Assembly: GCA_001512835.1 (NCBI GenBank)
Contig: LFRQ01000015.1
Coordinates: forward strand, 1,176 to 65,175
Direction of reading: 5' to 3'
Origin: Clostridia bacterium DTU022
Lineage (GTDB): Bacteria > Bacillota > Dethiobacteria > DTU022
DNA length: 64,000 nucleotides
The notes under the pieces were generated by a model. That model saw only the letters and a program-made list of their open reading frames with translations, did no database searches and was not told where the DNA came from. Below are positions 9,236 to 46,599 of the stretch, in pieces (position 1 is the first letter of the stretch; each line of letters opens with the position of its first letter). Both the position numbers and the translations under genes were made by a program.

Positions 9236-9679
9236 TTACTGTTCTTCCGGCACCAGGTCAATAATCACCGGCTTGTAATCATCCCTCTCCTTGACCCGGT
9301 TGTCCCAGCGGCGGAGCCCCCAAAACACCAGCCCCATGAAGCCAAAGCCTACGGCCACGGCCAGCGGTTCCCGGGGTCCGCCCCAGTTAAAGTAAGCGGC
9401 CAGGTTCAACCAGAGCAGGATGCCGGCCACCAGGGCCAGAAGGGGTACCATGTAGAGCATGAAGGAGACAAAGAGCATGCGGCGGTCATCGGCATAAATC
9501 AATACCTTTTGGCCTACTTCCGCGCCAATGGGATTTAAAACCTCCACCAGGTGGTCCCTCTGTTCCGCCTTCCCCAGAAGCCCTCCGCAGCGGCCGCAGT
9601 TTTCACAGGCCACATGCCGGCGCATGCGCACCAGGGCCTTCCCGCCCTTCTTCTCCACTACCGTTCCTACCCGTTCCAT
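9236..9679 (-). CDS. RseC/MucC-family (SoxR-reducing system) membrane protein
   Basis: MERVGTVVEKKGGKALVRMRRHVACENCGRCGG is a Cys-rich N-terminal domain, followed by two TM helices. Start moved to MERV (GGGAGTGGGG ribosome binding site). The upstream promoter has an extended -10 TGCTACATT. Confidence 0.6.
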   Translation of the reverse strand: MERVGTVVEKKGGKALVRMRRHVACENCGRCGGLLGKAEQRDHLVEVLNPIGAEVGQKVLIYADDRRMLFVSFMLYMVPLLALVAGILLWLNLAAYFNWGGPREPLAVAVGFGFMGLVFWGLRRWDNRVKERDDYKPVIIDLVPEEQ

Positions 9680-10070
9680 GGCCCCACTCCCGCGAACCAG
9701 GTTGATCTTAATGTAGCACAACCGCCCGGGGAAGTAAAGAAACGCTCCAGCCTTCCCGGCCCGGTAGGGCCTGTTTCCCGATATCAAATTTACTTGACAA
9801 GCAAATCCTGGAAAAGGCGGCTTCCAAAGAACTTCGTAATGCTCATTATATTCTATAGGCCCCTTTCGGGGCTAATGCCCCCGCTGGAAGATAGGAATTG
9901 CGGAGAAAGGAGCAAGGCGGAAAGAATAGAATAGGGCACCAATTAAATAAAAAAAGGGCCTCTCCTTCTTTAGGCGCGCCCCCGCTTAGCAATATTAAAT
10001 TAATAGGATCCATGCCCTTAATAAAGGATTTACAGCCAGGGCCGGCAAACTCCGGCGGCATAATAATAAA

Positions 10071-10872: not shown

Positions 10873-10914
10873 GTCAAACAAAAGATCGGGGTACAGCTTG
10901 AAAAAGCTGTACCC
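10873..10914 (-). terminator. Intrinsic terminator after the flx/hdr/etf operon
   Basis: Minus RNA GGGGUACAGCUU-UUUC-AAGCUGUACCCC followed by GAUCUUUUGUUUG. Confidence 0.7.
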
Positions 10915-10922
10915 CGCTGGCG

Positions 10923-11771
10923 TCAGGCAAAGGCTTCGGGCACTTCTTTCAATTGGGCATAAGTAAACACCGGGCCGTCCTTGCATACATAGAGAGGACC
11001 GGCATTGCAGCGCCCGCATTTCCCGATGCCGCACTTCATCCGGTTTTCCAAGGTAGTGTAGATCTGCTCGTCGGCAAACCCCAGTTTCTTCAGGTTCTGC
11101 AGGACGAAACGAATCATGATGGGCGGGCCGCAGGTGATGGCGATGGTGTTCTCCGGCGAAGGATTCAAATCCAGCAGCGCCTGGGGAACAAAGCCCACAT
11201 TATGCTCCCAGCCCTCTTCCTCCACGTCGATGGTAAGATGGCAGCAAACCTCCCCGCACTTCATCATCTCCTGGAGCTCGCCTTTAAAGCAGAGGTCTGA
11301 CGAAGTCCTGGCCCCGTAGATGACCGTCAGCCCGGCATACTGATCCCTTTTGGCCTTGACATACTCGATAATGGGGCGCAGGGGCGCCTGACCAATCCCG
11401 CCGCCGATGGTTAAAATCTTCTTCCCCTTCCACTCTTCCAGGGGGAAGCTGTTGCCCAAGGGACCGCGCACCGTCAGCTTGTCGCCGGCCTCCAGCTGGT
11501 GCAGGGCCTGGGTATTCTTCCCGGCCCGCATCACGGAGAAGCGCAGGAAATCTCCTTCCGTGGGCGAGCAGGAGATGCAGAACATGCTTTCCCCCACGCC
11601 CAGGATGCCCACCATGGCACACTGCCCGGGACGGTGGCTCCAGTTTTTCCGGACCTCTTCGTCATCCAGGGTTACTTTAAAAGTTTTAATGGGTCGATCT
11701 CCGGAGGTCTCGTACCAGGTTTCCTGAATGGTAGCCATATAAGGGATGTAAGGGTTGGCGTTATCCATCAC
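10923..11771 (-). CDS. FlxA-like NAD(P)H:FAD oxidoreductase subunit with C-terminal 2Fe-2S (sulfhydrogenase gamma/PyrK-like)
   Basis: 282 aa. FNR-like FAD/NAD fold, GGGIGQAPL and C-terminal CGIGKCGRC. The start overlaps the upstream stop (GTGATGG). Confidence 0.7.
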   Translation of the reverse strand: MMDNANPYIPYMATIQETWYETSGDRPIKTFKVTLDDEEVRKNWSHRPGQCAMVGILGVGESMFCISCSPTEGDFLRFSVMRAGKNTQALHQLEAGDKLTVRGPLGNSFPLEEWKGKKILTIGGGIGQAPLRPIIEYVKAKRDQYAGLTVIYGARTSSDLCFKGELQEMMKCGEVCCHLTIDVEEEGWEHNVGFVPQALLDLNPSPENTIAITCGPPIMIRFVLQNLKKLGFADEQIYTTLENRMKCGIGKCGRCNAGPLYVCKDGPVFTYAQLKEVPEAFA

Positions 11772-12793
11772 AGCGCCTCCTTAACCTGTCGCAGGATTTC
11801 GACCAGGTCGATGTTGACCGGACAGAGATTTACGCAGCGCCCGCAGCCGACACAGGCGATGACATCGAATTTCTGAACAAAGTAATTATACTTGTGATTG
11901 ATCCGGTTGCGGGTCCTCTCCCGGCGGGTAGGCCGGGGGTTGTGCCCCGAGGCATGCAGCGTGTATTCCGCGAACATGCAGGAGTCCCACATCCGGCAAC
12001 GGCGCCCTTCGAAACCCTCCACTTCATCCTGGATATCGAAGCAGTGGCAGGTCGGGCAAAGAAAGGTGCAGGTGCCGCAGCCCAGGCAGCCGGCGGCGGT
12101 GCGCTGCCACAGGGGATGCTCCCACAGGCCCGGCAGCCCCTGGGGGATACCGGTGGTATCCACGCTGCGGGCAATGGCTTTTTCCGCTGCGCCCACCACC
12201 TTCTCCTTCTCCTGAACCGCTCCCGCCGGGGCCTCCTGGAGCAGATCCTGCGCCGCCTCCAGCAGCGCCTTCCCCTTGTCGGTAAGGGCTTCCAGGAGGT
12301 AGCTCTCCCCCAGGTCCGTCATTAGCAGGTCCAGTCCCTCCGTGGAAGCGGGACCGCCCCCTACCGAGGTGCAGAAGCAGTTGGTCCCCGGCGCGCTGCA
12401 GGCCAGCCCCACCAGGGTGGCGGCTTCCCGGCGCTTCAGGTAGTAGGGGTCATCTACGTCCCAGCGGAACAGCTTCTGCACAATGCTCATGGCCCGGGCA
12501 TCGCAGGGCCGCACCCCCAGGAGCACGGCTTCGCCTTCCAGGACGGGCACCGCCAGTTCCGCCTGGCCGATCCGGTAACGGTAGAGGGTCTCCGTCTGGG
12601 GAAAGACAACCGTCTTGGGCGGCACCGTGGTATTGGCAAAGTCCAGGGAGGGAACCGCTCCTTCTTCCAAGGGCTCGAAGCGCATGATATCCCCCCGCTT
12701 CACCGGAGCCCAGACCTTCTTCTCCCCGGCCAGTTTCCCAACAAATGCTGACCATTGATCCTTATTTAACAGCATCGCTGACATATCACCCAC
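11768..12793 (-). CDS. FlxB-like iron-sulfur protein (sulfhydrogenase beta/AsrA-like)
   Basis: 341 aa with several Cys clusters (CSAPGTNCFC, CLGCGTCTFLCPTC, CVGCGRCVNLCP). Confidence 0.6.
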   Translation of the reverse strand: MGDMSAMLLNKDQWSAFVGKLAGEKKVWAPVKRGDIMRFEPLEEGAVPSLDFANTTVPPKTVVFPQTETLYRYRIGQAELAVPVLEGEAVLLGVRPCDARAMSIVQKLFRWDVDDPYYLKRREAATLVGLACSAPGTNCFCTSVGGGPASTEGLDLLMTDLGESYLLEALTDKGKALLEAAQDLLQEAPAGAVQEKEKVVGAAEKAIARSVDTTGIPQGLPGLWEHPLWQRTAAGCLGCGTCTFLCPTCHCFDIQDEVEGFEGRRCRMWDSCMFAEYTLHASGHNPRPTRRERTRNRINHKYNYFVQKFDVIACVGCGRCVNLCPVNIDLVEILRQVKEAL

Positions 12794-12795
12794 CT

Positions 12796-13776
12796 CTACA
12801 GTATGAATTCCTCGGGGTCATTCGGATTGTAACTGGCCAGGAAGGGCTTGGCCTCGGGATCAACGCCGGCTTCATAGCCGTACTTCTCCCGGACTTCTTT
12901 GGCCAGCTTGCGGTTGAGCTTGCCCAGGGGGATATTCATCGGGCAGGCCCGTTCGCACTCACCGCATTCCGCACAGCGCCCGCCCAGGTGAAAAGCTCGG
13001 GCCAGGTGGAAGGCGGTATTCTCCGAAAAATTGACCGCGCGGTTAATCCAGATCGGGTTAAGGCGATCCAGGATACAATCGTCGCAATAACAGAGGGGGC
13101 AGGCGTTGCGGCAGGAGTAGCAGCGAATGCACTTGGAGAACTGCTCCTCCCAGTAATCCCAACGCTCTTCCACGCTCTTCTGCTCCAGCTCCTCCACGCC
13201 CCGGTCGGCCTCCGTCTCCCAGGGCTCCACCGGGTCCCCGATGGTGACATCGCTGAGCACCGGATTGGGATAGCGGCAGAGGCGGCACTTCTCCGCCAGG
13301 ATCTCCTCCCGGGGTATGGTTGCCGTCTCCCCGTTCCTGATAAGCTGGAAGCCGCCTTCCTGCCAGCTCAGCTCTCCCTTCTCCAGCCCTTCGGGGTATT
13401 TCTGCTGGAGCAGATTCAGATCCACTACCCCGCGGCAGGGCAGGCCCACGAGGATTACCTGCTCCCGCTCAATCCCCTTCTCCACCAGCAGCTGGACCAC
13501 CGCCCGGCTGTCGCAGCCTTTAACCAGCAGGGCTACTTTGCGGCGGTCCGGCTCCTCTCCCCGGGGGACCGGGAGCTTCTCCACCAGGGTCAGGTAGGTG
13601 GCCAGGTTGGAGGCGCAGAGGGGCGAGAAAATGAGTTCTTCCGCACCGGCGGCGTCCTGGACAAAGCAAGGCGAGACCCGGTAGCCGAAGCTGCCCGGAC
13701 GCCAGCCGATGAGGTATTTTACATCATCCCGGGAGACAATCTCAGCGGCCGTTTTGCGCAGTTTTTCCAGGTCCAT
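12796..13776 (-). CDS. FlxC-like iron-sulfur protein (FrhB/HydB-like)
   Basis: 326 aa. CIRCYSCRNACPLCYCDDC and CAECGECERACP ferredoxin-type clusters. Confidence 0.6.
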   Translation of the reverse strand: MDLEKLRKTAAEIVSRDDVKYLIGWRPGSFGYRVSPCFVQDAAGAEELIFSPLCASNLATYLTLVEKLPVPRGEEPDRRKVALLVKGCDSRAVVQLLVEKGIEREQVILVGLPCRGVVDLNLLQQKYPEGLEKGELSWQEGGFQLIRNGETATIPREEILAEKCRLCRYPNPVLSDVTIGDPVEPWETEADRGVEELEQKSVEERWDYWEEQFSKCIRCYSCRNACPLCYCDDCILDRLNPIWINRAVNFSENTAFHLARAFHLGGRCAECGECERACPMNIPLGKLNRKLAKEVREKYGYEAGVDPEAKPFLASYNPNDPEEFIL

Positions 13777-13791
13777 TCAGCGATCCCCTCC

Positions 13792-14223
13792 TCACCAGTC
13801 GATCTGGCGCCGCCTGAACCCCTGGAAGGGGCCGGCTTCCCGAGCATCGTCCACCGTCTTCTGCACGACTTCCTTCCACTTGTGTCCCTCCGAGGCGGAA
13901 ACCCAGCTCATATGGAAACGGCGCGGATCAATTCCCACAAATTCCATCAAATCCTTCAACATGCCCAAACGGCGCCGGGCATAGAAATTGCCCTCCATGT
14001 AATGGCAGTCCCCGGGATGGCACCCGGAAACCAGGACCCCGTCGGCCCCCTGCTGTAAGGCGTTCATTACGAAGAGGGGGTTGACCCGTCCCGAGCACAT
14101 TACCCGGATCACGTTGATGTTGGCCGGGTACTGCACCCGGCTGGTCCCGGCCAGGTCGGCGCCGGCATAAGAACACCAGTTGCAAAGAAAAGCGACAATA
14201 TTAGGTTCGAACGATTCGCTCAT
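13792..14223 (-). CDS. mvhD: MvhD/FlxD-like methyl-viologen-reducing hydrogenase delta subunit
   Basis: MSESFEPNIVAFLCNWCSYAGADLAG...CSGR...GCHPGDCHY is the MvhD signature. Its ATG overlaps the hdrA TGA (ATGA). I reject the ORF-track 5' extension. Confidence 0.8.
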   Translation of the reverse strand: MSESFEPNIVAFLCNWCSYAGADLAGTSRVQYPANINVIRVMCSGRVNPLFVMNALQQGADGVLVSGCHPGDCHYMEGNFYARRRLGMLKDLMEFVGIDPRRFHMSWVSASEGHKWKEVVQKTVDDAREAGPFQGFRRRQIDW

Positions 14224-16232
14224 CTCATGACCCCCAATGCCGCAATCTGCGGTAGTATCTGGCGATCCCGGAAAGACTTGGGCTGAATGGAATCGGAGAG
14301 GCAGCCTGCCGAGCAGGAGCCGCACCCTTTGCACAGGGCTTCGTTAACCCGAGCCACCTGTACCGGGTGCCCGAACCGGTTAACGGCAACCAGCTCGATG
14401 GCGCTGTAGGGACAGATCTCCACGCAGAACCCGCAGCCGCGGCAGGTATTTTCGTTTACCGTGGCCACCTGGGCCCCAATCTTCACTTTGCCCCGAGCCA
14501 GGGGAATCATCGCTGAAGAGGCGGCCCCTTTGGCCTGGGCCACCGTATCGGGAATATCCTTGGGGCCCTGGCAGCATCCGGCCAGGAATACCCCGTCGGT
14601 GGCGGTATCTACGGGGCGCAGCTTGGGATGGGCCTCCAGGAAGAAGAGGTCCGGGGACTGGGAGAGGCGCAGCAGGTCGATAATCTTGCGCACATCCTGC
14701 CGCGGCTCCAGGCCCACCGCCAGAACCACCAGGTCCACTTCGTCCTCCATGGGAGTGGCGGTAAGGGTGTCTTCCACCTTGATTACCAGCTTGCTGCCCC
14801 GCTTAAAGATCTCCGAGGGATTGCCGCGGATATAGTGGATCCCTTCCCGGCGGACCCGGTCGTAAAACTCTTCAAAGCCTTTTCCGAAGGCCCGGACATC
14901 CATGTAGTAGACCCGGACGTTGGCGTCGGGTATCTTGTCCTTGACCAGGTGCGCCTGCTTGGCCGTATACATGCAGCAGACCCGGGAGCAGTACTCGTTG
15001 CCCACGCTCTTGTCCCGGGAGCCGACGCACTGGATAAAGGCGATCTCCTTGGGAACGATCTCTTCGTCCTCCACCTTGATCTTGATCTGGCCCCCCGTGG
15101 GACCCGAGGCGGAAACCAGCCGCTCCATCTCCAGGCCGGTAATGACATTGGGATAGTCGGCATAGCCGTACTCCGGCTTTTTCCGGGCTTCAAAGACGTC
15201 GAAGCCGGTAGCCACCACGATGGCGCCTACCTTGAATTCGACGATCTCATCCTGCTGCTCAAAATTAATGGCTCCGGCCCGGCAGACCTCGGCGCATTTC
15301 GGGCCTTTGCCGCACTTGCCCCTGGTTAGGTAGAGGCAGTTTTCCGGGTCAATGGTATACTTGGCCGGCACCGCCTGGGGAAAAGGCAGGTAGATGGCGG
15401 AGCGCTTCCCCATCCCCGCGTCAAATTCGTTGGGGATGCGGTTGGCCATCCGGCAGGCCGCGGCGCACTCGCCGCAGCCGGTACACTTGTCGAAATCCAC
15501 GTAGCGGGCCTTCTTGCGCACCTTGACATCGAAGTTCCCGATATAGCCGCTGACCTCTTCCACTTCGGAATAGGTCATCAGCTGGATGTTGGGATGGCTG
15601 GCCGTATCCACCATTTTAGGGGTAAGGATGCAGGCGGAGCAGTCCAGGGTGGGGAAGGTTTTGTCCAGCTGGGCCATGCGCCCGCCCACCGAAGGAGTCT
15701 TCTCCACCAGGTATACCTTGAAGCCGGCATCGGCGATATCCAGGGCCGCCTGGATGCCGGCGATGCCGCCGCCGATCACCAGGGCGGCCGGTTCGGCATC
15801 CACTTCCCGCTCTTCCAGGGGCTCCAGCTGCCTGACCTTGGCCACGGCCGCCGCCACCAGCCTCCGGGCCTTGGCGGTAGCTTCTTCCCGATCCCCGTGG
15901 ACCCAGGAACAATGCTCCCGGATATTGGCCATCTCCAGGAAAAAGGGGTTAAGGCCGGCTTCCTGCAAGGCTTTCCTGAAAGTCGGCTCGTGCATGCGGG
16001 GAGAGCAGGAGGCCACCACCACCCGGTTCACCCCTTCTTCCTTGATATCATTTTTAATCAGGAGCTGTCCGGGGTCCGAACACATGTAGGCGTAGTTGCG
16101 AGCGACAATCACATTGGGCAAGCCCTTGGCAAACTCGGTGACCGCTTCCACGTCTACCGTGGAGGCGATATTAATGCCGCAGTGACAGATATAGACGCCC
16201 AATTTTGGTTTTTCCGTCATCTGGCTATTCAT
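14220..16232 (-). CDS. hdrA: Heterodisulfide reductase subunit A-like flavoprotein
   Basis: 670 aa. N-terminal CxC and Cys cluster, FAD motif VIGGGIAGIQAAL, and two 4Fe-4S ferredoxin motifs (CTGCGEC, CRGCGFC...CKGCGSC). No internal stop, so this copy has no Sec. Confidence 0.85.
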   Translation of the reverse strand: MNSQMTEKPKLGVYICHCGINIASTVDVEAVTEFAKGLPNVIVARNYAYMCSDPGQLLIKNDIKEEGVNRVVVASCSPRMHEPTFRKALQEAGLNPFFLEMANIREHCSWVHGDREEATAKARRLVAAAVAKVRQLEPLEEREVDAEPAALVIGGGIAGIQAALDIADAGFKVYLVEKTPSVGGRMAQLDKTFPTLDCSACILTPKMVDTASHPNIQLMTYSEVEEVSGYIGNFDVKVRKKARYVDFDKCTGCGECAAACRMANRIPNEFDAGMGKRSAIYLPFPQAVPAKYTIDPENCLYLTRGKCGKGPKCAEVCRAGAINFEQQDEIVEFKVGAIVVATGFDVFEARKKPEYGYADYPNVITGLEMERLVSASGPTGGQIKIKVEDEEIVPKEIAFIQCVGSRDKSVGNEYCSRVCCMYTAKQAHLVKDKIPDANVRVYYMDVRAFGKGFEEFYDRVRREGIHYIRGNPSEIFKRGSKLVIKVEDTLTATPMEDEVDLVVLAVGLEPRQDVRKIIDLLRLSQSPDLFFLEAHPKLRPVDTATDGVFLAGCCQGPKDIPDTVAQAKGAASSAMIPLARGKVKIGAQVATVNENTCRGCGFCVEICPYSAIELVAVNRFGHPVQVARVNEALCKGCGSCSAGCLSDSIQPKSFRDRQILPQIAALGVMR

Positions 16233-16272
16233 CCTCCTACAGAGATTAAACCTTCGGGGCCGCGCGAAGGGT

Positions 16273-17247
16273 TTAGCCTTTCAGCTCCTTCAGCTTCTCC
16301 GTCAGCTTGGGAACGATCTTCAGCAGGTCGTCCACTATCGCATAGTCGGCATGGGCAAAAATGGGAGCTTCAGGGTCCTTGTTGACGGCAACCACCGTTT
16401 TGGCCCCTTTGATTCCAGCCACATGCTGGAAAGCACCGGAAATGCCCAGGGCGATATAGAGCTTGGGCTTAACCGATTTGCCCGATGTGCCCACCTGGCG
16501 GTCGTGGGGCAGCCAGCCGGCATCGACGGCGGCCCGGGAACCGCAGAGGTCGGCCTTGATGGTATTGGCCAGCTCTTCGATGATGGGCAGGTTTTTGTCT
16601 TCCCGCAGGCCGCGCCCGATGGCAACCAGGACCTCGGACTGGGTGATGTCCACATCGCCCACTTCCGCCTCGATATATTCGACAAATTTGCGGTAATCCA
16701 GATCTTCCTTCAACGGGGAGTCGATCTTCTCTATGCTGCCGGCGGCGGAAGGATCCGGCGCTTCAAAGGCGGCCTCCCGGACGGTGACCAGGTAGGTGTC
16801 GGCCGGTTTAAAAGCGATGGTGGCGTTAACCTTGCCGGAATAAAGCTGGCGCGTGGCTTTTAAGACGCCCTCCTCCAGCTTAAGGTCAATTACATCGGCC
16901 ACAAAGGGGAGATCCTTCTCCACCGCCAGGGCGGGAGCCATATCCACCCCCTGGGCGGTGTGACCCACCATGACCAGGGAGGGCTTGCGCTGGTCGATAA
17001 GGGCGGAGAGGACTTTCTGGTATTTGTCCGAGTTGTAATCCGCCAGAAGAGGATCATCCACCACCAGGACTTTCACGCCGTAGCCGGACAACTTCTCCGC
17101 CAGGGCGTCTACGCCGCTGCCCAGGAGAAGGACTTCCACCTCGCCGCCAAAATCCTTGGCCAGGCCGGGGGCCAGGGCCAGCATCTCCAGAGTGATATCT
17201 CTCAAAGCGCCTTGGCGGTGCTCCGCCAGAACGAAAACGTTACCCAT
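16273..17247 (-). CDS. etfA: Electron transfer flavoprotein alpha subunit
   Basis: 324 aa. EtfA FAD-binding C-terminal domain. AAAGGAGG ribosome binding site. Confidence 0.85.
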
Positions 17248-18036
17248 TTACACCAGGCCTCCTTTTACCAGGATAGATGCCAGTTTCTCCGCCTTCTCGT
17301 CGGGTTCGCCCTCGATAATTTCCGCCTTGGAAACAACTTCGGGAATGTAGAGCTTCTCCAGGACGATCTTGGAGGCGGAGACATCGACCTGATCCGCGGC
17401 GATGCCCAGGTCGTCCAGGTTGACCACCTTCAACTCTTTCTTCTGGGCCTCCCGGATACCGCGAATGGGAGCATAGCGGGGCTCGTTGATCCCCGTCTGA
17501 ATGGTGATAACCGCCGGCAGGCTAAGCTCCACTACTTCCATTAAGCCGCCTTCCAGCTCGCGGTGGGCTTTCACCTTGCCGTCGAGAATCTCCAGCTTTT
17601 TCACCATGGCCGCGTGGGAGACGCCCAGCAGCTCCGCCAGGGCCACGCCGGTGGCCATCTGCCCGTCATCGCTGGCCATGCAGCCGGTCAAAACCAGGTC
17701 AAACTCCTGCCCCTTGATTACTCCGGCCAGGGTCCTGGCCACCATCAGGGGATCATAGGCGGCGATCCGCGAATCCTCAACCCGGACGGCGTTGTCCGCC
17801 CCCTTGGCCAGGGCCATGCGGATCATAACCTCGGATTCCTTGGGGCCGATGGAGACAATGGTTACGCTGCCCCCATGGGCTTCCTTAATTAATACCGACT
17901 CCTCCACGGCGTAGTTGTCTGCATCGTTAATATCAAAGGAAAAGCGGCTGCTGTCTACGGAAGTACCATCTGGATTAACCTTAACCTCCGCTTCGGAAGT
18001 ATCGGGCACGTACTTGATGCACACAAAGGTTTTCAT
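17248..18036 (-). CDS. etfB: Electron transfer flavoprotein beta subunit
   Basis: MKTFVCIKYVPD is a canonical EtfB start with an AGGAGGTG ribosome binding site at 9 nt. The ORF-track start four codons upstream is too close to the ribosome binding site. Confidence 0.85.
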   Translation of the reverse strand: MKTFVCIKYVPDTSEAEVKVNPDGTSVDSSRFSFDINDADNYAVEESVLIKEAHGGSVTIVSIGPKESEVMIRMALAKGADNAVRVEDSRIAAYDPLMVARTLAGVIKGQEFDLVLTGCMASDDGQMATGVALAELLGVSHAAMVKKLEILDGKVKAHRELEGGLMEVVELSLPAVITIQTGINEPRYAPIRGIREAQKKELKVVNLDDLGIAADQVDVSASKIVLEKLYIPEVVSKAEIIEGEPDEKAEKLASILVKGGLV

Positions 18037-18066
18037 AAAATCATCCACCTCCTACCAATCTGTTCA

Positions 18067-19215
18067 TCAGGCTAAAAGCTCACCCAACAACTCCGTAATC
18101 TCCGCCACCCGCATCTCTTCTTCGTAGCCCAGCGCCTTCATGGCGTCTTCCAGGGTCAGCACGCAGAAAGGACAAGCCACCGCCACAATCTCCGCTCCCA
18201 TTTCCTTGGCGTCCTTAATGCGGGTTTCGGCCAGGCGCTGGGCCTTGGATTCCGACTCCACCCACATTTTCCCGCCGCCTCCCTCGCAGCAGAGGCTGCG
18301 CTCCCGGGAGCGGTCAAATTCCAGCAACTCCACGCCCTGAATGGATTTCAACAGGCGGCGCGGCTCATCAAATACCAGGCTCTGCTTGCCCAGATAGCAG
18401 GGGTCATGGAAAACAATCTTCTTGGGCAAATCTTGGTTCCAGGAAATTTTCCCCTCTTGCAACAGCTGGTCTAAGAGCTGGGTGTAGTGAAGTACCGGTT
18501 TGTTCAGATCCGGATAGCGGGTCCTAAAGGTGGTAAAACAATGGGGTGAAAGGGTAACCAGTTGCCGGGCCTGGAATTCGTTGAGAAACTCGGTGTTGTC
18601 CTCCACGGTCATCTCGAAGAGGCCTTCCTCTCCCAGGGCGAAGACCTCGCTGCCGCAGCAGGACTCGTTCTCCCCGATAAAGCCGTAATCTACCCCGGCC
18701 TGGTTAAGGATCTTAACCAGGTTTTTGGCAACAATCTGAACCCGGGGGTCGTAGGCGATGGTGCAGCAGACAAAGAATAGATTTTCTACAGGCTGTTCGG
18801 GGTCGGCAATTTTTACCTCCAAACCCTCCATCCAGTCATAGCGGGTTGCCCGCGGCTTCTCCCAGGGATTGCCTTCCCGGAATACGCTCTCCAGGGCATC
18901 CCGGACCGTGGGCTGGGTCTTGCCGCTCTCCACTACCAGGGTGCGCAGGCCGAAAAGAACCTCCAGGGGCTTCAAGCCCTTGGGACAGCGTACCGCACAA
19001 GTATGGCAGGCGGTACAGTCCCAAATCTCTGCCAGCTTGGAGAGTTCCTCCAGCATCTCCTCGTTCTTGGCGTCGTAAACAAAACGGCGCACGTTGAGAT
19101 TAGTCCGTACCGTGACCGGGCAGCCGCCAGTACACCGTCCGCACTGGATACATCCGAACAGGTCCAGTTTTTCAGCAAAGGTCTGGTTTTCGGTACTCAT
19201 CATCATACCCCACAT
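18067..19215 (-). CDS. HdrD/GlcF-family Fe-S oxidoreductase (two 4Fe-4S motifs + two CCG Cys-rich domains; HdrC-HdrB fusion-like)
   Basis: CIQCGRCTGGCP and CTACHTCAVRCP ferredoxin motifs, then the CCG domains (ESCCGSE, CCEGGGG). No TM segment. The start is ambiguous among several ATGs within 19200-19215. Confidence 0.75.
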   Translation of the reverse strand: MWGMMMSTENQTFAEKLDLFGCIQCGRCTGGCPVTVRTNLNVRRFVYDAKNEEMLEELSKLAEIWDCTACHTCAVRCPKGLKPLEVLFGLRTLVVESGKTQPTVRDALESVFREGNPWEKPRATRYDWMEGLEVKIADPEQPVENLFFVCCTIAYDPRVQIVAKNLVKILNQAGVDYGFIGENESCCGSEVFALGEEGLFEMTVEDNTEFLNEFQARQLVTLSPHCFTTFRTRYPDLNKPVLHYTQLLDQLLQEGKISWNQDLPKKIVFHDPCYLGKQSLVFDEPRRLLKSIQGVELLEFDRSRERSLCCEGGGGKMWVESESKAQRLAETRIKDAKEMGAEIVAVACPFCVLTLEDAMKALGYEEEMRVAEITELLGELLA

Positions 19216-20096
19216 CAGAGAATGTTTTTCCCTCGAAACCTAAAAACAGCACCGCCAGGCAAGGTCGAGGAAAAGCAAAAAACCTTTAAACGAACTCATC
19301 CCTCCTTATTGTCTATATTCTTAATCTAAACGATGTTCTATTTAGTGCAAGTAAAAATACAATTTCGACACTTTGTCCTTAATATCCTGCCAAAAATTTA
19401 GGCAGGTCATAATATTTTACCTTGTTAAATATTTTCGCGAATAAAGTGCGCCCGCAGGGTTGGAGCCGGGAAAAAAAGGGGCCGCCGGGAAAATGAAATC
19501 CCGCCCAGGGCCCGCCTCCACCCAGGCGCCCGGACTAAAATAAAATAGGAGAGGGGAAGCGGCCCCCAGCCGGCGCCGGGCCGGAGAGCAGCCCTGGAGA
19601 TATTCTTTATCTTGCCCCATCTCGCCGCCGGCGGCAGGCAGCGGCCATAAATCTCCCGGGCGCCTGGGCCGCTGCCGCGTTGGTGCTGTCCGTGGCCTTT
19701 CCAGGAGGCCGCCCCGACCCTTCCCCTTTCGCCCATGGCTTTGACCGCCCGCCCCGGCAAAAAAGCCCCTGCCGCCCCGGGCCTTTTGCCCGTTCCCCTC
19801 CGGCGGTGGCAAAAATAAAGTTCTTGCCGGTGGGGCCTTCTCCACCACCGCCCGCCTGCGGGCGGCGGAAGGGAGAAAGAAAGGCGCTCCTTGCCGGTTA
19901 GGCCCGGCGAGGGTGCAGGCATGGGATGGTGAACCGCCACGGCCATGAAAAAACGGCCCCTACCGGTTATGCCTATGCCCAGGGTTGTCTCCATATGCCC
20001 GGTTTCTCAATTTAAGGCGGCCAATTCAATAGTAAAATTAAAAATTAAATATGTTATCCGGTTATTTTTTCAGAAAAAAAGGTATTTTTACATGTT

Positions 20097-20307: not shown

Positions 20308-21375
20308 CTAGCCCAGGGATTCCTCAACCCGGATTAAACCTGCCGGACCCTCCACAATGGTGCCGACCAGCCAGCCTTTTACGCCTTCTTCGGCCAGCCG
20401 CTTCTCCATCAACTCCCCCTTGCCCCGCTCCACGGCAATTAAGAGCCCTCCCGAGGTCTGGGGATCCGCCATCAGGAGAAGGGAATCTTCTTCCTGCCCG
20501 CTGCCGGCCCATTCCACGTGGGCACGGTAATATTCCAGGTTCCGGTAAGCGCCGGCGGGGATAAAACCCTGAGCGGCCAACTCCTTCGTTCCGGGGTATA
20601 AGGGGATGTTGCCGTCGCCCAGCCGGGCCGCCGCCCCGCTGGAGAGAAGCAGTTCGCGCAGGTGCCCCAGGAGGCCGAAGCCGGTAACATCGGTGCAGGC
20701 TGTGGCACCGGCGGAAAGAGCCGCCTTGGCGGCGGCGGCATTCAACCGCGCCATGGACTCCAGGGCTTCTTTCACCTCTTCGGGGCTCACGGCTTCTCCC
20801 TTCAGGGCCGTGGTTATAATGCCTGCGCCCAGGGGCTTGGTTAAATAGAGCCGGTCCCCGGGCCGGGCACCGGCAGGGGTCAGCATGCGGCGGGGGTCGA
20901 TAAGCCCGGTCACGGCCAGGCCGTATTTCGGCTCCTTGTCTTCCACACTGTGGCCGCCCACCACCATGGCGCCGGCTTCCCGGACTTTGTCATAGCCCCC
21001 CCGGAGGATGAACTCCAGGGCCTCCTGCAACTCCGGGGAGCCCCCGGCGCAGGGAAAGCAGACAATATTGAGGGCCGTAAGGGGCCTGCCGCCCAGGGCG
21101 TAGATATCGCTGAGGGAGTTGGCGGCGGCGATCTGCCCGAAGAGGTAGGGGTCATCCACCACGGGCGTAAAAAAGTCAACGCTCTGCACCAGGGCCAGCT
21201 CTTCCGTCAGGCGGTATACGGCGGCATCGGCAAATCGATCTTCCCGGTTTAGAAAATGCGGGTCATCGGGCAAAGGCAGCGAGCGCAGAACCTGCGCCAA
21301 GGCCTCGGGGCCTATTTTTGCCGCTCACCCGGCGCTGGCGGTCATCGCCGTCAGGCGAAATTTTTTATCGTTCAC
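20308..21375 (-). CDS. selD: Selenide, water dikinase (selenophosphate synthetase), selenocysteine-containing form with in-frame UGA at plus 21325-21327
   Basis: The ORF-track protein lacks the N-terminus that normally holds the catalytic Cys/Sec. Reading upstream in frame gives VNDKKFRLTAMTASAG-U(TGA)-AAKIGPEALAQVL, which aligns to E. coli SelD ..[25 protein letters not shown]. GTG start at 21375 with an AAGGGGGAAG ribosome binding site. Confidence 0.75.
21283..21324 (-). promoter_or_regulatory. Candidate bacterial SECIS hairpins downstream of the selD UGA
   Basis: GGCCCCGAGGCC sits 12-23 nt downstream of the UGA. GCGCAG-GUU-CUGCGC is a perfect 6-bp stem with G/U in the loop, 27-41 nt downstream. 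Confidence 0.4.
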
Positions 21376-21599
21376 GCCACTTCCCCCTTCTATGCCTAAT
21401 TTCCCCGGCCCCGGTGTCCGCGGAATCCCGGCCGGGACTCCGGCCTCGGGTGTGGATAAAGCCCGGCGCCAAGGCAGGCCTCGGGCCGGCCCGAGCCGGC
21501 TCCGCCCCGGAAGCCCGATAAAGCCCGGCGGCTAACAGCCATCTTCCGGCCACGGGCACCGGCTCCGCCTCAAAATCCGGACAAGCAGGCGGCGGTTCC

Positions 21600-23540
21600 T
21601 TATTCTTCTCCGCCTTTCCCCAGGCCGGCTATCTTCCGGGCTACCCGCTGGTCGCCTACCCGCCGGGTCAAGCCGCGCTGATCGAAGTGCTCCAGCAGGG
21701 GCTGAATAAATTTCCGGGAGCTGCGGGTCAGGTCCCGGAACTGGGCCAGGGTTAGAGTCTCGGCCTTCTCAAAATGGCGACGCAGCAGCTCCACCGCTTC
21801 CCGGTAGGTGTCCCGGTGGAAATAAAGCTCTTCATTAATTTTTTGCAGCAGGCCCTGGCCGGTCAAGTAGCTGAGGTATTCCTCCTGGCGCCCGCTCTCC
21901 ACCCCCGAACGGGCCATGGCTTCCCGAAGGGATGGGGGCTGGAAGCCCCCGCTCCGGTACAGGCCGAGGAGGCGGTCCAGCTTCTCCCGGTCCCCGGCGC
22001 CTGGTTGCGGTTGATAGCCGTGCAGGCTGATCAACTCCCCGCGCACGGCAATCTGCTTCTCCTGCTCCATAATCTCCAGCAAGGCGTCGTACTGGCGCAG
22101 GCTTAAGCTTTCCGGCAGCTCGCCGCGCAATTCCGCCCGGGAAAGCCCGAACATCAGGGGATAGCGGGAATGAAAGCGCCGCAGCCGGGCCAAAATCTTT
22201 TCCCGCCACTCTTCCAGCTGGGCGGCGGCTACGTAGCCGCCGCCCAGCCGGCAAGCCGCTCCCTGGCGAACCAGCTTGGTTAAAATCTCTTCCAACTGGG
22301 CCTCGGATAGGCGGGTAGCCTTGGACAGCTGCGCCAGCCCCGCCCCCGGCAGCGCCTCCAGCTTCTGCCGGACAAAGGCTTCCCCTTCTCCGGAGGCCAG
22401 CTCCTGCTCCAGGGCCTTCAGGTGCCGGACCACCTCCTCCCGGAAGCGGCGGTGCCGGGAAGGAAAGGGATCCAGGATCACTCCCCCGCCGATGGTGGTC
22501 GTGGGGGAGTAGGAGCGGATAATAAAGGGATCCCGGCGCTCTGCTACCAGGGGGCGATCCAGGCGGCACTGCACCGGAGCCGCTTCCCCGGGAAGCAGTT
22601 CCTCCCGGTCCAGGAGAACCAGCCTGGCCACCGCCCGGGCCGTGCCCAGGTAAAAGTGAACGGGATCGAGGTTTTTCAAAGGGCGCGACGCCCGGGGAAG
22701 AAGCTTGAGGGTTGCATCCACCAGCCCGGTAACCCGGTAGTAGCCGGGAGCGCCGACGACGCAGCCGCGCTGGATCTCTTCCTTATCCACGCCGGAAAGG
22801 TTCAGGGCCACCCGCTGGCCGGCCCGGGCCTCCCGGAGATCGCGGCCATGAACCTGGATATTGCGCACCCGGGCCTGCAGCCCCGGGGGGACGATCTCCA
22901 CCGTATCCCCCTGGCGGACGGTACCCTGGAACAGGGTCCCGGTCACCACGGTGCCAAAGCCGGAGATGGTGAAGGAGCGGTCCACGGGGAGGCGGAGGGG
23001 GCCCCGGGGATCCCGGGGGACCACGTCCCTGGTCACGGCATCGATGAGCTCCTTCAGCTCCTCCAGTCCTTCCCCTGTCACCGCGGATACGGCGCAGAGG
23101 GGGGCCTTCTCCAAAAAGGTCCCTTTCAGCTCCTCCCGGATCTCCTCCTGCACCAGCTCCCGCCAGTCCTCTTCCACCAGGTCGACTTTGGTAATAACCA
23201 CGATCCCCTTCTGGACCTGGAGAAGCTCAAGGATATCCAGGTGTTCCCTGGTCTGGGGCATAACCCCCTCGGAGGCGTCCACCACCAGCAGGACCAGGTC
23301 CATGCCCGCCGCCCCGGCCAGCATGTTGTGAATAAAGCGCTCATGGCCGGGAACGTCCACCACTCCCGCCAGGCGCCCGCCGGGGAGGACAAAGGGGGCG
23401 AATCCCAGGTCGATGGAGATGCCCCGCTCTTTCTCTTCCTCCAAGCGGTCGGTATCCACCCCGGTAAGGGCTTTAATAAGAACGGTCTTCCCGTGATCCA
23501 CATGTCCGGCGGTGCCGATAATAATATACTCCGCTTCCAC
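21600..23540 (-). CDS. selB: Selenocysteine-specific elongation factor
   Basis: [15 protein letters not shown]-domain, EF-Tu-like domains 2 and 3, and a long C-terminal winged-helix extension. GTG start with a GGAAGGAGG ribosome binding site at 7 nt. Confidence 0.85.
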
Positions 23541-23573
23541 GAGCAGGCCTCCTTCCCTCAAAGAGCCTCCAGC

Positions 23574-36861: not shown

Positions 36862-37001
36862 CTATCTCTTCACCTCCTTGTTTGGCTTTGATGAAAAAAG
36901 CCCGCAAAGAGGGAACCTTCTTGATGCTCCACTCTCGATGCCGTGTTCTCCTCTTTCCGGGCTTTATCCCTATTCTAAGCGAGCCTGTCTTTATGCCGCC
37001 G

Positions 37002-37451
37002 CTAATCCTTCACCGGCTGGAAGTACTTGATGTCGTAAAAATCCCCCCGGCGCTCTTCATTCCATACCGCCTTGACTCTCATCCCTACCTTGATCTCCTC
37101 CAAGGGGACTCCGCCGATCATGTGCATGAATAAGTTGCTGGTCCCGTCCAGCTTAATCATCCCGTAAGCATAAGGCGGAGTGGAGGGCTGGCCGGGGTAG
37201 GGGAGGTATACTATGGTGAAGGAGTCGATATAGCCTTCGTCGCTGACGGGAACGGGATCCTTCTCCGTCGGCGCAAAGCAGCGGGCGCAGACGGCCGTGG
37301 TGGGGACCACCACCTTCCCGCAGGAAGTGCAGCGGGAACCGTAAATAACTTTTTCCTCCTTCAGCCGTTCAAAAAACAGGGTATTGTAGTAGCCGTAGCA
37401 CCAGTGGTAAGGGACGTAGCAGGTGCGCTTCACATTTTTGACAATCTCCAC
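37002..37451 (-). CDS. Zn-ribbon + OB-fold protein (DUF35), partner of SCP-x-type thiolases
   Basis: CTSCGKVVVPTTAVCARC rubredoxin-like ribbon followed by an OB fold. Confidence 0.7.
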   Translation of the reverse strand: MEIVKNVKRTCYVPYHWCYGYYNTLFFERLKEEKVIYGSRCTSCGKVVVPTTAVCARCFAPTEKDPVPVSDEGYIDSFTIVYLPYPGQPSTPPYAYGMIKLDGTSNLFMHMIGGVPLEEIKVGMRVKAVWNEERRGDFYDIKYFQPVKD

Positions 37452-37463
37452 TTTGACACCCCC

Positions 37464-37970: not shown

Positions 37971-37995
37971 GTCTACACCTCCTTGGTCTCCAGGT

Positions 37996-39159: not shown

Positions 39160-39171
39160 CGGTTCACCTCC

Positions 39172-40323: not shown

Positions 40324-40332
40324 CTCCTCTGG

Positions 40333-41481: not shown

Positions 41482-41492
41482 GGTTAACCTCC

Positions 41493-41960: not shown

Positions 41961-41977
41961 GCCCCCACTCCTTTCCG

Positions 41978-43132: not shown

Positions 43133-43148
43133 AGCGATCTCCTCCTTT

Positions 43149-44770: not shown

Positions 44771-44807
44771 CCACTCCTTGCTGGTAATTTAAGCCAAGAC
44801 CGCCTCT

Positions 44808-46085: not shown

Positions 46086-46131
46086 CAAAAGCAACACAGC
46101 AGCCGGGGGCGGTTTTCCCCGCCTGCCGGTC

Positions 46132-46593: not shown

Positions 46594-46599
46594 GTTCTG

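What the first reader, a model, noticed from the sequence alone, without database searches (positions are those of the whole stretch)
10923..19215. Co-transcribed HdrD-like/EtfBA/HdrA/MvhD/FlxCBA supercluster, a candidate electron-bifurcating or confurcating module that links Etf to heterodisulfide-reductase-type chemistry
Eight minus-strand genes are tightly spaced. There are overlaps at mvhD/hdrA (ATGA), flxA/flxB and flxB/flxC (3-nt gap), and etfA/etfB are adjacent. Reading 5' to 3' they encode an HdrC+HdrB-fusion-like CCG protein, EtfB, EtfA, HdrA, MvhD and three Flx-like subunits (two Fe-S, one NAD(P)H:FAD subunit). The cluster has a single terminator at 10873-10914. Flx-Hdr (flxABCD-hdrABC) and Etf-based bifurcating systems are each known. 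Here the Etf pair sits between the HdrCB-like gene and hdrA, separate hdrB/hdrC genes are absent, and the Flx genes run in the order C-B-A downstream of mvhD. This suggests a single complex routing electrons between Etf, the HdrA flavin and an NADH-oxidising Flx arm. The neighbouring acyl-CoA dehydrogenase-rich cluster suggests reverse electron transport during fatty-acid oxidation as one possible role; that last point is speculation.
Basis: partly seen in the sequence, partly recalled or inferred. Interest (0 to 1): 0.7.

Follow-up and report, generated by a model that had tools for sequence, protein, structure and literature searches.

The report
Soluble Etf–HdrA–Flx electron-bifurcating gene cluster
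Eight co-transcribed genes probably encode one soluble enzyme that links an electron-transfer flavoprotein (Etf), NAD(P)H and ferredoxin through an HdrA flavin, giving anaerobes a likely quinone-free way to dispose of fatty-acid electrons; the cluster is widespread and untested.

Summary
Window 10923-19215 (minus strand) carries eight tightly packed genes: a CCG iron-sulfur protein, etfB, etfA, hdrA, mvhD and three Flx-like genes. A strong terminator closes the cluster.

The same gene order occurs in all 48 species-level genomes whose contigs are long enough to show it (Bacillota, Dethiobacteria, Actinomycetota). No conserved internal terminator exists.

- **CCG protein:** it is not GlcF/LutA. 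Its best solved relative is the soluble part of mycobacterial EtfD, an Etf acceptor. Its ligand pattern matches what is described for BamD of class II benzoyl-CoA reductase, which passes HdrA-derived electrons to a non-bifurcating Etf.
- **EtfB:** it lacks the bifurcating-Etf motifs.
- **HdrA:** it is full-length and keeps every cluster cysteine motif.
- **FlxB/FlxA and FlxC:** FlxB and FlxA resemble the sulfhydrogenase NAD(P)H module. FlxC resembles the FdhB iron-sulfur domain found in Hdr supercomplexes.

Best reading: a soluble NAD(P)H / ferredoxin / Etf oxidoreductase that bifurcates or confurcates at HdrA.

In distant relatives the CCG-EtfBA core sits beside acyl-CoA dehydrogenases and β-oxidation genes. 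This supports the fatty-acid link. The window's own "ACAD-rich neighbour" does not.

It is a new variant of known kinds and is biochemically untested.

The parts
18067..19215 (-). Soluble HdrC+HdrB-fusion (HdrD-like) Fe-S protein of the EtfD/BamD type; the proposed Etf docking and electron-wire subunit. The likely true start is M4-M6 (19206-19200).
   Evidence: Pfam finds 2 CCG domains plus Fer4 dicluster domains. Best PDB hit is 9ojn_A, EtfD, E 5.6e-49. Top Foldseek hit is also 9ojn. All 16 cluster cysteines, S223-P-H225-C226 and W318 are invariant in 80 homologues. No transmembrane segment is present.
17248..18048 (-). EtfB, non-bifurcating (AMP-type) by motif; the likely true start is the ATG at 18036.
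   Evidence: Pfam ETF. Best PDB hit is the Methylophilus W3A1 ETF beta subunit, 3e-51, against 3e-32 or weaker for bifurcating EtfB. The DGDTAQVGP, RxFxG and SPT motifs are absent. An in-frame stop upstream of M5 in homologues sets the start.
16273..17247 (-). EtfA (FAD-carrying shuttle subunit), without an N-terminal ferredoxin domain.
   Evidence: Pfam ETF plus ETF_alpha. The PDB hits align from residue 1 to 4.
16233..16272 (-). etfA-hdrA intergenic spacer with a weak hairpin and the hdrA ribosome-binding site; not a terminator.
   Evidence: The hairpin is not conserved; the GGAGGA site is conserved.
14220..16232 (-). HdrA, the candidate bifurcating or confurcating flavoprotein (FAD plus six [4Fe-4S] sites).
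   Evidence: PDB 5odc_A, E 1.4e-256, with full-length alignment and all cysteine motifs conserved. NCBIfam HdrA2 scores 904 bits.
13792..14223 (-). MvhD/FlxD [2Fe-2S] adaptor; its ATG overlaps the hdrA stop codon.
   Evidence: Pfam FlpD, 181 bits. It matches the C-terminal part of the fused HdrA2 model. The 4-nt overlap is shown.
12796..13776 (-). FlxC-like Fe-S subunit; its C-terminal dicluster domain resembles the FdhB Fe-S domain of the Fdh-Hdr supercomplexes.
   Evidence: PDB 9t1s_M 2e-28, 8rvu_E and 7bkb_E, over residues 196-314. Pfam shows a weak FrhB_FdhB_C match plus Fer4.
11768..12793 (-). FlxB-like Fe-S subunit (sulfhydrogenase beta / AsrA type).
   Evidence: PDB 9nez_B, 1.5e-52, full length. 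Pfam Fer4_22.
10923..11771 (-). FlxA-like NAD(P)H:FAD subunit with a [2Fe-2S] domain (sulfhydrogenase gamma / AsrB type).
   Evidence: PDB 9nez_C, 5.5e-60. Pfam NAD_binding_1 plus DHODB_Fe-S_bind.
10877..10916 (-). Intrinsic terminator that closes the operon.
   Evidence: 13-bp stem with 8 G-C pairs followed by a T-run. A promoter-like site for panD follows at 10877-10848.
19216..19424 (-). 209-nt A+T-rich upstream spacer, the presumed promoter region (not mapped).
   Evidence: Sequence. No consensus sigma-70 site was scored there.

Best explanation
The eight genes encode one soluble, membrane-free, HdrA-based flavin electron-bifurcating/confurcating oxidoreductase. It couples three redox partners: NAD(P)H, a low-potential ferredoxin or flavodoxin, and a non-bifurcating electron-transfer flavoprotein (Etf).

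Proposed wiring:
- NAD(P)(H) reacts at FlxA (FAD, [2Fe-2S]).
- Electrons pass through the Fe-S clusters of FlxB and FlxC to the MvhD [2Fe-2S] adaptor and on to the HdrA FAD.
- From HdrA, one branch runs through the HdrA ferredoxin domains to ferredoxin.
- The other, high-potential branch runs through the two cubane and two non-cubane clusters of the EtfD/BamD-like CCG protein to the FAD of EtfAB.
- EtfAB then exchanges electrons with acyl-CoA (or other) dehydrogenases.

Net reaction, reversible: Etf(red) + Fd(red) + 2 NAD(P)+ <-> Etf(ox) + Fd(ox) + 2 NAD(P)H.

I favour the confurcating direction during acyl-CoA oxidation. That would be a quinone-independent way to re-oxidise Etf.

What is shown: gene content, domain and ligand patterns, conserved operon structure, and neighbourhoods. 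What is inferred: physical association of the subunits, the reaction, its direction, and the nucleotide and ferredoxin specificity.
For: **Operon.** The genes are tightly packed behind a single strong terminator, with no conserved internal terminator.

**Synteny.** 48 of 48 sufficiently long loci in Bacillota, Dethiobacteria and Actinomycetota keep the order, with short or overlapping gaps. The eight proteins diverge in step (Spearman 0.72-0.92).

**CCG protein.**
- It is homologous to the Etf-accepting soluble region of EtfD (E 5.6e-49; top Foldseek hit).
- It has no membrane or haem domain.
- It has five Cys plus His225 at the proximal non-cubane site, and Ser223 in place of a Cys at the distal site. 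All are invariant in 80 species.
- This is the pattern described for BamD, which docks a non-bifurcating ETF and reduces it in vitro.

**HdrA.** It aligns full-length to the solved methanogen HdrA, with every cluster cysteine motif kept.

**EtfB.** It lacks the b-FAD, NAD and SPT motifs of bifurcating Etf, and it matches AMP-type W3A1 ETF best.

**NAD(P)H arm.** FlxB and FlxA match sulfhydrogenase I beta and gamma. The FlxC C-terminus matches the FdhB Fe-S domain found in MvhD/HdrA supercomplexes.

**Distant relatives** (Chloroflexota, Edwardsbacteria, Syntropharchaeia and unnamed lineages), in 10 contexts examined:
- The soluble CCG protein lies beside EtfBA in 9.
- HdrA-type genes are present in 9, though two of those (L085, L093) are uncertain. 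The nine are those, plus the probable 858-aa gene, for which no Pfam record exists. L085 is cut at its contig end.
- ACADs are present in 8, inside beta-oxidation operons.
- One locus has a flavodoxin gene between etfA and hdrA.
Against: - No protein-level evidence exists. Co-transcription and complex formation are inferred from gene order.
- No acyl-CoA dehydrogenase lies in or next to the operon in the window. The nearest is 21 kb away. Only 3 of 80 close loci have one directly upstream.
- The BamD comparison rests on the preprint's text, not on an alignment, because no BamD sequence or structure was available to me.
- The N-terminal ferredoxin-like half of the CCG protein modelled poorly (pLDDT below 50).
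- The direction of electron flow and NADH versus NADPH cannot be read from sequence.
- Some distant EtfB relatives carry a half bifurcating motif (AQVGP), so the Etf family's cofactor content is not certain.
- None of the HdrA, HydB or HydG NCBIfam models reaches its curated cutoff.
Confidence: 0.6

Rival explanations
1. Same complex, opposite physiological direction. NAD(P)H is bifurcated at HdrA to make reduced ferredoxin, and Etf serves as the high-potential sink. Etf then reduces enoyl-CoA via an acyl-CoA dehydrogenase, or feeds another acceptor. This would be a functional analogue of Bcd-EtfAB, serving fermentation or acetogenic redox balance.
For: The chemistry is reversible. In class II benzoyl-CoA reductase, ETF is the acceptor of the HdrA-type bifurcation. 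Many hosts come from lineages and habitats associated with the Wood-Ljungdahl pathway. A related etfAB-hydB-hdrAC tandem was noted in an acetogenic NPL-UPA2 genome that lacks hydrogenases. L090 places the core next to phosphotransacylase, acetate/butyrate kinase and a branched-chain aminotransferase, a fermentative context.
Against: Distant relatives place the core after thiolase, 3-hydroxyacyl-CoA dehydrogenase and two ACADs, together with acyl-CoA ligase and mutase genes. That is equally typical of oxidative beta-oxidation. Syntropharchaeia are alkane and fatty-acid oxidisers. Sequence cannot decide.
Confidence: 0.3
2. Two separate enzymes share an operon. One is a soluble Etf dehydrogenase (Etf plus CCG protein) that hands electrons to an unknown soluble acceptor. 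The other is an independent Flx-MvhD-HdrA NAD(P)H:ferredoxin module that uses HdrBC-type partners encoded elsewhere.
For: A 40-nt spacer with a weak hairpin separates etfA from hdrA. L087 has the CCG protein with HdrA-like genes but no Etf. L085, L092 and L093 have EtfBA-ACAD-CCG as a unit, with HdrA genes on the other strand or not clearly identified.
Against: HdrA needs an HdrC-like dicluster partner for its high-potential branch, and the CCG protein is the only one in the operon. The linkage is invariant over 48 of 48 complete loci with co-varying divergence. The hairpin is not conserved. BamD shows that this kind of protein binds an HdrA-type subunit and ETF at the same time.
Confidence: 0.15
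3. A genuine Flx-Hdr-type disulfide reductase. The CCG protein would reduce DsrC or another thiol-disulfide carrier, as proposed for FlxABCD-HdrABC, with Etf as an extra electron donor.
For: The Flx-like module plus MvhD and HdrA resembles the FlxABCD-HdrABC system. The first CCG motif keeps the Cys-Cys pair (C186, C187) as HdrB does, unlike EtfD, which has Thr there.
Against: His225 occupies the position of the EtfD histidine that completes the cluster and makes it non-catalytic. Ser223 replaces a cluster cysteine. The best relatives are Etf acceptors, not HdrB. No separate HdrB or HdrC is present, and no dsrC lies nearby.
Confidence: 0.08
4. The Etf itself is a two-FAD bifurcating Etf that oxidises NADH, so the complex would hold two bifurcation sites in series.
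For: EtfA matches bifurcating EtfA chains slightly better than canonical ones. The EtfB N-terminus (VPDTSE) and some distant relatives (AQVGP) look partly like the bifurcating type.
Against: DGDTAQVGP is absent in 78 of 78 close EtfB sequences. The RxFxG and SPT motifs are also absent. AMP-type W3A1 EtfB is the best hit by 19 orders of magnitude. EtfA has no ferredoxin domain. A dedicated NAD(P)H module is already present.
Confidence: 0.05

Closest known systems
BamDEF core of class II benzoyl-CoA reductase (Geobacter metallireducens) with its ETF partner (bioRxiv 10.64898/2026.04.10.717634)
   Same: An HdrA-type flavoprotein, an MvhD-type adaptor and an HdrBC-fusion CCG subunit that passes the high-potential electron to a non-bifurcating ETF. 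The CCG subunit has 5 Cys plus 1 His at the proximal non-cubane cluster and a Cys-to-Ser change at the distal one. An NADH-linked input module is attached through the MvhD adaptor.
   Different: No tungsten BamBC output module is present, so the low-potential electron must go to free ferredoxin or flavodoxin. The input is a sulfhydrogenase beta/gamma-like Flx module rather than the HydBC-like BamGHI. HdrA is a normal single unit, not a fused double. The Etf genes lie inside the operon. Direct alignment to BamD was not possible.
FlxABCD-HdrABC NADH dehydrogenase/heterodisulfide reductase (Desulfovibrio vulgaris; Ramos et al. 2015, as cited)
   Same: An NAD(P)H/FAD/[2Fe-2S] subunit, two Fe-S subunits, an MvhD-like subunit and HdrA in one cluster. 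FBEB with ferredoxin is proposed.
   Different: The gene order is inverted (hdrA-mvhD-flxC-B-A). Separate HdrB and HdrC are replaced by one EtfD/BamD-like fusion. An Etf pair is inserted. The proposed high-potential partner is Etf, not DsrC. Orthology to DVU2399-2402 was not tested.
EtfD / EMO / FadF family of Etf:(methyl)menaquinone oxidoreductases (PDB 9ojn; PMC13083937)
   Same: Homologous 2x[4Fe-4S] plus 2xCCG soluble region (E 5.6e-49). It has the same five-Cys-plus-His ligand set for the non-cubane cluster and is encoded next to etfBA.
   Different: There is no transmembrane haem-b/quinone domain and no C-terminal disordered region. The first CCG site has Cys-Cys and Ser where EtfD has Cys-Thr and Cys. 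Electrons would go to HdrA instead of menaquinone.
Bifurcating Bcd-EtfAB / Ldh-EtfAB complexes
   Same: The same predicted overall reaction partners: NADH, ferredoxin, and an Etf-linked dehydrogenase substrate. Both are reversible between confurcation and bifurcation.
   Different: In those complexes bifurcation occurs at the EtfB b-FAD. Here EtfB lacks that site, and HdrA is the candidate bifurcating flavin.
HdrABC-MvhAGD and Fdh-Hdr supercomplexes of methanogens (PDB 5odc, 7bkb, 8rvu)
   Same: HdrA is about 60% identical over its full length with all cluster motifs kept. An MvhD adaptor is present, and an FdhB-like Fe-S domain (FlxC) sits upstream of MvhD.
   Different: There is no hydrogenase or formate dehydrogenase and no catalytic HdrB. 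The donor is NAD(P)H and the acceptor is Etf.
etfAB + hydB-hdrAC tandem noted in the NPL-UPA2 genome Unc8 (Suzuki et al. 2018, PMC6305446)
   Same: [quoted passage not shown]
   Different: It was a one-genome annotation remark. It gave no analysis of the CCG subunit, the Etf type, conservation or mechanism.

Membership tests
HdrA (bifurcating flavoprotein of Hdr complexes) | Full-length homology to solved HdrA, including the thioredoxin-reductase-like FAD domain | tested here: met
   5odc_A, E 1.4e-256, residues 7-665 against 2-648. A GxGxxG motif lies at 153-158.
HdrA (bifurcating flavoprotein of Hdr complexes) | Cysteine motifs for the N-terminal, inserted and C-terminal [4Fe-4S] clusters | tested here: met
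   Every Cys motif seen in 5odc_A is conserved in the pairwise alignment.
HdrA (bifurcating flavoprotein of Hdr complexes) | Curated NCBIfam cutoff | tested here: not met
   HdrA2 model: 904 bits against a cutoff of 1100. That model includes a fused MvhD part, which the separate mvhD product matches with 182 bits.
MvhD/FlxD | FlpD domain above the Pfam gathering score | tested here: met
   180.7 bits against 22.3, covering the full domain.
FlxABCD-HdrABC | FlxA-type NAD(P)H/FAD/[2Fe-2S] subunit, two Fe-S subunits and an MvhD-like subunit | tested here: met
   Domain level only. Orthology to the D. vulgaris proteins was not tested.
FlxABCD-HdrABC | Adjacent separate hdrB and hdrC genes | tested here: not met
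   Only one HdrC+HdrB-fusion gene is present, and an Etf pair is inserted.
EtfD/EMO Etf:quinone oxidoreductase | Soluble 2x[4Fe-4S] plus 2xCCG region with five Cys plus His ligating the non-cubane cluster | tested here: met
   Alignment to 9ojn_A: C273, C309, C310, C348, C351 and H225. All are invariant in 80 sequences.
EtfD/EMO Etf:quinone oxidoreductase | Membrane domain with haem b and a menaquinone site | tested here: not met
   The protein is 382 aa and begins at the first dicluster motif. Maximum 19-residue hydropathy is 1.52.
EtfD/EMO Etf:quinone oxidoreductase | Linear [3Fe-4S] ligand set (Cys503, Cys538, Cys581, Cys584; Thr539) | tested here: not met
   C151, C186 and C226 are kept, but S223 replaces Cys581 and C187 replaces Thr539.
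BamD (class II benzoyl-CoA reductase) | HdrBC fusion with a proximal cluster of 5 Cys + 1 His and a distal cluster altered by a Cys-to-Ser change | tested here: inconclusive
   The pattern matches the preprint's description. No BamD sequence or structure was available for an alignment.
BamD (class II benzoyl-CoA reductase) | Association with the tungsten BamBC reductase module | tested here: not met
   No AOR-family gene lies in or near the cluster.
Bifurcating (group 2) Etf | EtfB DGDTAQVGP b-FAD motif, RxFxG NAD motif and SPT motif (PMC9232219) | tested here: not met
   The window has DDGQMATGV, SRIAAY and IPE at the aligned positions. 0 of 78 homologues carry DGD[TS]AQ[VT]G.
Canonical non-bifurcating Etf | Closest similarity to AMP-containing EtfB; one FAD plus AMP | tested here: inconclusive
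   The best hit is W3A1 EtfB, 3e-51. Cofactor content cannot be read from sequence.
Sulfhydrogenase beta/gamma (HydB/HydG) type NAD(P)H module | Full-length homology of both subunits | tested here: met
   9nez_B 1.5e-52 and 9nez_C 5.5e-60. NCBIfam cutoffs are not reached. No hydrogenase subunits are present.

The most novel reading that the evidence does not exclude
This cluster and its relatives are a widespread, so far uncharacterised class of HdrA-based Etf:NAD(P)+/ferredoxin confurcating enzymes. They would be a third, quinone- and membrane-independent route for re-oxidising Etf during anaerobic beta-oxidation, alongside reversed Bcd-EtfAB and EMO/Fix-driven reverse electron transport. The family comprises thousands of protein clusters, from Bacillota and Actinomycetota to Chloroflexota and alkane-oxidising Syntropharchaeia. 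Its input modules are interchangeable (Flx-type, NuoEF-type, or none in cis), and it uses ferredoxin or flavodoxin as co-substrate.
Probability: 0.4. Interest if true: 0.8.

Novelty: new variant of a known kind. Interest (0 to 1): 0.62.

Why it matters
Electrons from acyl-CoA dehydrogenases have a high redox potential. How strict anaerobes dispose of them is a long-standing bottleneck question in syntrophy and fermentation. The known answers are membrane-bound Etf:quinone oxidoreductases driven by reverse electron transport, or bifurcating Etf run backwards.

A soluble complex that plugs an ordinary Etf into the HdrA bifurcating flavin through an EtfD/BamD-like adaptor would be a further solution. 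It would change energy budgets modelled for digester, soda-lake, serpentinite and subsurface anaerobes. It would also generalise the ETF-BamD interaction just seen in benzoyl-CoA reductase into a modular design principle.

The cluster occurs in a genome labelled Dethiobacter alkaliphilus (L040), a species with cultured strains. The hypothesis should therefore be directly testable, if those strains carry the cluster.

Tried and rejected
1. **Internal terminator or promoter in the etfA-hdrA gap.** There is only a 6-bp hairpin with a poor U-tract. It is not conserved in 60 loci, and no promoter-like site was scored there.
2. **Upstream leader ORF.** A 19-codon ORF lies at about 19299-19240. Its Shine-Dalgarno sequence abuts the ATG, and no counterpart exists in 45 related loci. 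Dropped.
3. **Selenoproteins.** I tested this because selA, selB and selD lie upstream. There is no in-frame TGA at any Cys position in the eight proteins in any locus. The in-frame stops lie almost entirely before the true starts. The two others (L067 FlxA, L064 HdrA) are not at Cys positions.
4. **Membrane anchoring.** None of the eight proteins has a hydrophobic segment.
5. **GlcF/LutA identity of the CCG protein.** These are weaker than EtfD by sequence and by fold.
6. **Bifurcating Etf.** The motifs are absent.
7. **'ACAD-rich neighbour' as functional evidence.** Only two ACADs are present, 21 and 41 kb away.
8. **Literature.** Eight full-text searches found no description of the cluster beyond one remark on NPL-UPA2. 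The library lacks most subscription journals. Ramos 2015, Garcia Costas 2017 and Agne 2021 could not be read, and the paper cap stopped me from reading Buckel & Thauer 2018.
9. **AlphaFold model of the CCG protein.** Only the CCG half is confident. It was used for fold search only.

Full report
**Observation**

Independent gene calls on identical JGI metagenome contigs give the same eight genes, with slightly later starts for four of them.

Pfam and NCBIfam confirm each domain call:
- a protein with two [4Fe-4S] dicluster motifs and two CCG domains;
- EtfB;
- EtfA;
- HdrA;
- MvhD (FlpD domain, 181 bits);
- an Fe-S protein with a weak FrhB_C match;
- an AsrA/HydB-like Fer4_22 protein;
- an NAD_binding_1 plus DHODB-Fe-S protein.

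The gene junctions are tight. hdrA and mvhD overlap by ATGA. etfB and etfA abut. flxC/flxB and flxB/flxA are separated by 2 nt or overlap. A 13-bp G+C-rich hairpin with a T-run at 10916-10877 closes the cluster, and a promoter-like site for the next gene (panD) follows. None of the eight products has a hydrophobic segment, so the system is soluble.

**Is the operon real and conserved?**

A scan of one genome per species with an alignment of the CCG protein returned 80 loci. They come from:
- Bacillota labelled Syntrophomonadaceae;
- Dethiobacteria, including a genome labelled Dethiobacter alkaliphilus;
- Actinomycetota (Geothermincola, Solincola, Anoxymicrobiaceae and others).

tblastn of the eight window proteins shows the same order in all 48 loci long enough to hold it. 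Another 31 are cut by contig ends but agree as far as they go. Only L082 lacks the Flx genes.

Median gaps are 33, 0, 40, -4, 15, 2 and -4 nt. The eight proteins diverge in step across loci (Spearman 0.72-0.92).

It fails:
- The window's 6-bp hairpin has no proper U-tract.
- Nothing like it is conserved in 60 related spacers.
- All of those spacers end in a strong GGAGGA ribosome-binding site.

**The CCG protein**

Its best solved relative is not GlcF, LutA or HdrB. It is the soluble region of mycobacterial EtfD (9ojn, E 5.6e-49), and a Foldseek search with an AlphaFold model puts the same entry first. EtfD accepts electrons from Etf and wires them to menaquinone.

Mapping the published ligands onto the alignment gives the following:
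- The five cysteines and the histidine of the non-cubane cluster are all present (C273, C309, C310, C348, C351, H225). In EtfD that histidine is described as making the cluster non-catalytic.
- At the other CCG site the protein keeps a Cys-Cys pair (C186, C187) where EtfD has Cys-Thr.
- It has Ser223 where EtfD has a cysteine.
- All these residues, and all eight cubane-cluster cysteines, are invariant or nearly so in 80 species.
- There is no membrane or haem domain.

A 2026 preprint on class II benzoyl-CoA reductase describes just such a protein:
- BamD is an HdrBC fusion bound to the HdrA-like BamE.
- Its proximal cluster is held by five Cys and one His.
- Its distal cluster is altered by a Cys-to-Ser change.
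- Its heterodisulfide pocket is filled.
- It docks a non-bifurcating ETF and reduces it in vitro.

I could not align the two sequences, so this match is by description only.

**The other subunits**

- **HdrA.** It aligns over its full length to the crystallised methanogen HdrA (E 1e-256), and every cluster cysteine motif is kept.
- **EtfB.** It matches the AMP-containing W3A1 ETF far better than any bifurcating EtfB (3e-51 against 3e-32 or weaker). It lacks the DGDTAQVGP, RxFxG and SPT motifs that mark bifurcating Etf (motifs from PMC9232219; alignment). None of 78 homologues has the first motif.
- **EtfA.** It has no ferredoxin domain. HdrA is therefore the only plausible bifurcating flavin.
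- **FlxB and FlxA.** They are full-length homologues of the beta and gamma subunits of Pyrococcus sulfhydrogenase I, its NAD(P)H module.
- **FlxC.** Its C-terminal dicluster domain matches the FdhB Fe-S domain of the Fdh-MvhD-Hdr supercomplexes.

**Neighbourhoods**

In the window the flanks are housekeeping genes:
- selA, selB and selD upstream;
- panD, an RseC/MucC-family gene, lysA-like, asd and aspartate kinase downstream.

The 'ACAD-rich neighbour' is a thiolase/DUF35 cluster with one ACAD, 21 kb away. A second ACAD lies 41 kb away.

Among the 80 close loci, an ACAD sits directly upstream in only three. Several Actinomycetota loci have acyl-CoA mutase genes upstream.

The wider family of about 375-aa soluble CCG proteins is very large: 5502 clusters at E<=1e-30 among the candidates scored. 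It includes Chloroflexota, Edwardsbacteria and Syntropharchaeia. In ten distant contexts:
- EtfBA is adjacent in nine.
- HdrA-type genes are present in nine, though two of those (L085, L093) are uncertain.
- ACADs are present in eight.
- The core often sits inside complete beta-oxidation operons, for example thiolase, 3-hydroxyacyl-CoA dehydrogenase, ACAD, ACAD, CCG, EtfBA, HdrA, MvhD.
- The NAD(P)H input module varies: Flx-like, NuoEF-like, or absent.
- In one locus a flavodoxin gene lies between etfA and hdrA.

**Mechanism**

The best-supported model is a soluble HdrA-based bifurcating/confurcating enzyme. NAD(P)(H) reacts at FlxA. FlxB, FlxC and MvhD relay electrons to the HdrA FAD. One HdrA branch serves ferredoxin or flavodoxin. 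The other runs through the CCG protein to the Etf FAD, and from there to acyl-CoA or other dehydrogenases.

The net reaction equals that of Bcd-EtfAB but is built from different parts. I favour the Etf-oxidising, NAD(P)H-forming direction during acyl-CoA oxidation, but sequence cannot decide this.

Gene content, ligand patterns and conservation are shown. Complex formation, reaction, direction and nucleotide specificity are inferred.

**Novelty**

All the modules are known: Flx-Hdr, HdrA bifurcation, EtfD/EMO and BamD-ETF. Eight full-text searches found only one passing remark on a related arrangement, etfAB next to hydB-hdrAC in an NPL-UPA2 genome. None of the 'Etf-Hdr'-type compound names I searched for occurs anywhere in the library. 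The library misses most subscription papers, so an earlier description cannot be excluded.

I rate this a new variant of a known kind. It is of real interest to the bifurcation and syntrophy fields, and it should be directly testable in Dethiobacter.

Noticed in passing
window 9236-9787 (-); downstream of flxA in L-series loci: An RseC/MucC-family small membrane protein gene follows flxA in 32 of 80 related loci, at a median distance of 242 nt. In the window, panD and a 124-aa ORF are inserted between them. RseC is linked to Rnf/Rsx-type redox systems elsewhere (from my own knowledge). It could be an accessory factor or a regulator of this complex.
   Followed up: partly
window 20308-24992 (-): selD, selB and selA lie just upstream of the cluster. 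selB occupies that position in 41 loci, selA in 35 and selD in 25. No selenocysteine codon was found in any of the eight proteins or their homologues, so this is probably lineage synteny.
   Followed up: yes
window 34987-45698 (-): A cluster encodes an acyl-CoA synthetase, four SCP-x-type thiolase-like proteins, a DUF35/ChsH2 OB-fold protein, one acyl-CoA dehydrogenase and a BKACE beta-keto-acid cleavage enzyme. The substrate is unknown. BKACE genes also recur upstream of the cluster in five Actinomycetota loci.
   Followed up: partly
L090 12996-13475: A flavodoxin gene sits between etfA and hdrA in a distant relative of the cluster. It is a candidate low-potential partner for the HdrA branch.
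   Followed up: no
L084, L085, L086, L089 EtfB genes: EtfB proteins of distant relatives carry a half bifurcating-type motif (DDGxAQVGP or similar). The window clade has DDGQMATGV. This Etf clade may be intermediate between the canonical and bifurcating groups.
   Followed up: partly
L091 13816-15883: A second Etf pair, whose EtfA has an N-terminal ferredoxin domain (bifurcating type), lies directly after the CCG-EtfBA-HdrA-like genes in one distant locus.
   Followed up: no
window 46001-48000: G+C falls to 0.50, against about 0.61 for the rest of the window. A YheC/D-type ATP-grasp gene follows at 47981-49108. This may be an acquired segment.
   Followed up: no
window 31070-33397 (-) and 56898-58469 (+): Two large ORFs (775 aa and 523 aa) have no Pfam match. 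The first lies next to a metallophosphoesterase gene (33394-34467), and a similar 776-aa ORF recurs upstream in 14 related loci.
   Followed up: no
L082 8367-13043; L088 15510-19156: In the clade that lacks Flx genes, mvhD is followed directly by a corrinoid adenosyltransferase, a MeaB-like GTPase and acyl-CoA mutase subunits. This ties the core to B12-dependent acyl-CoA rearrangement.
   Followed up: partly
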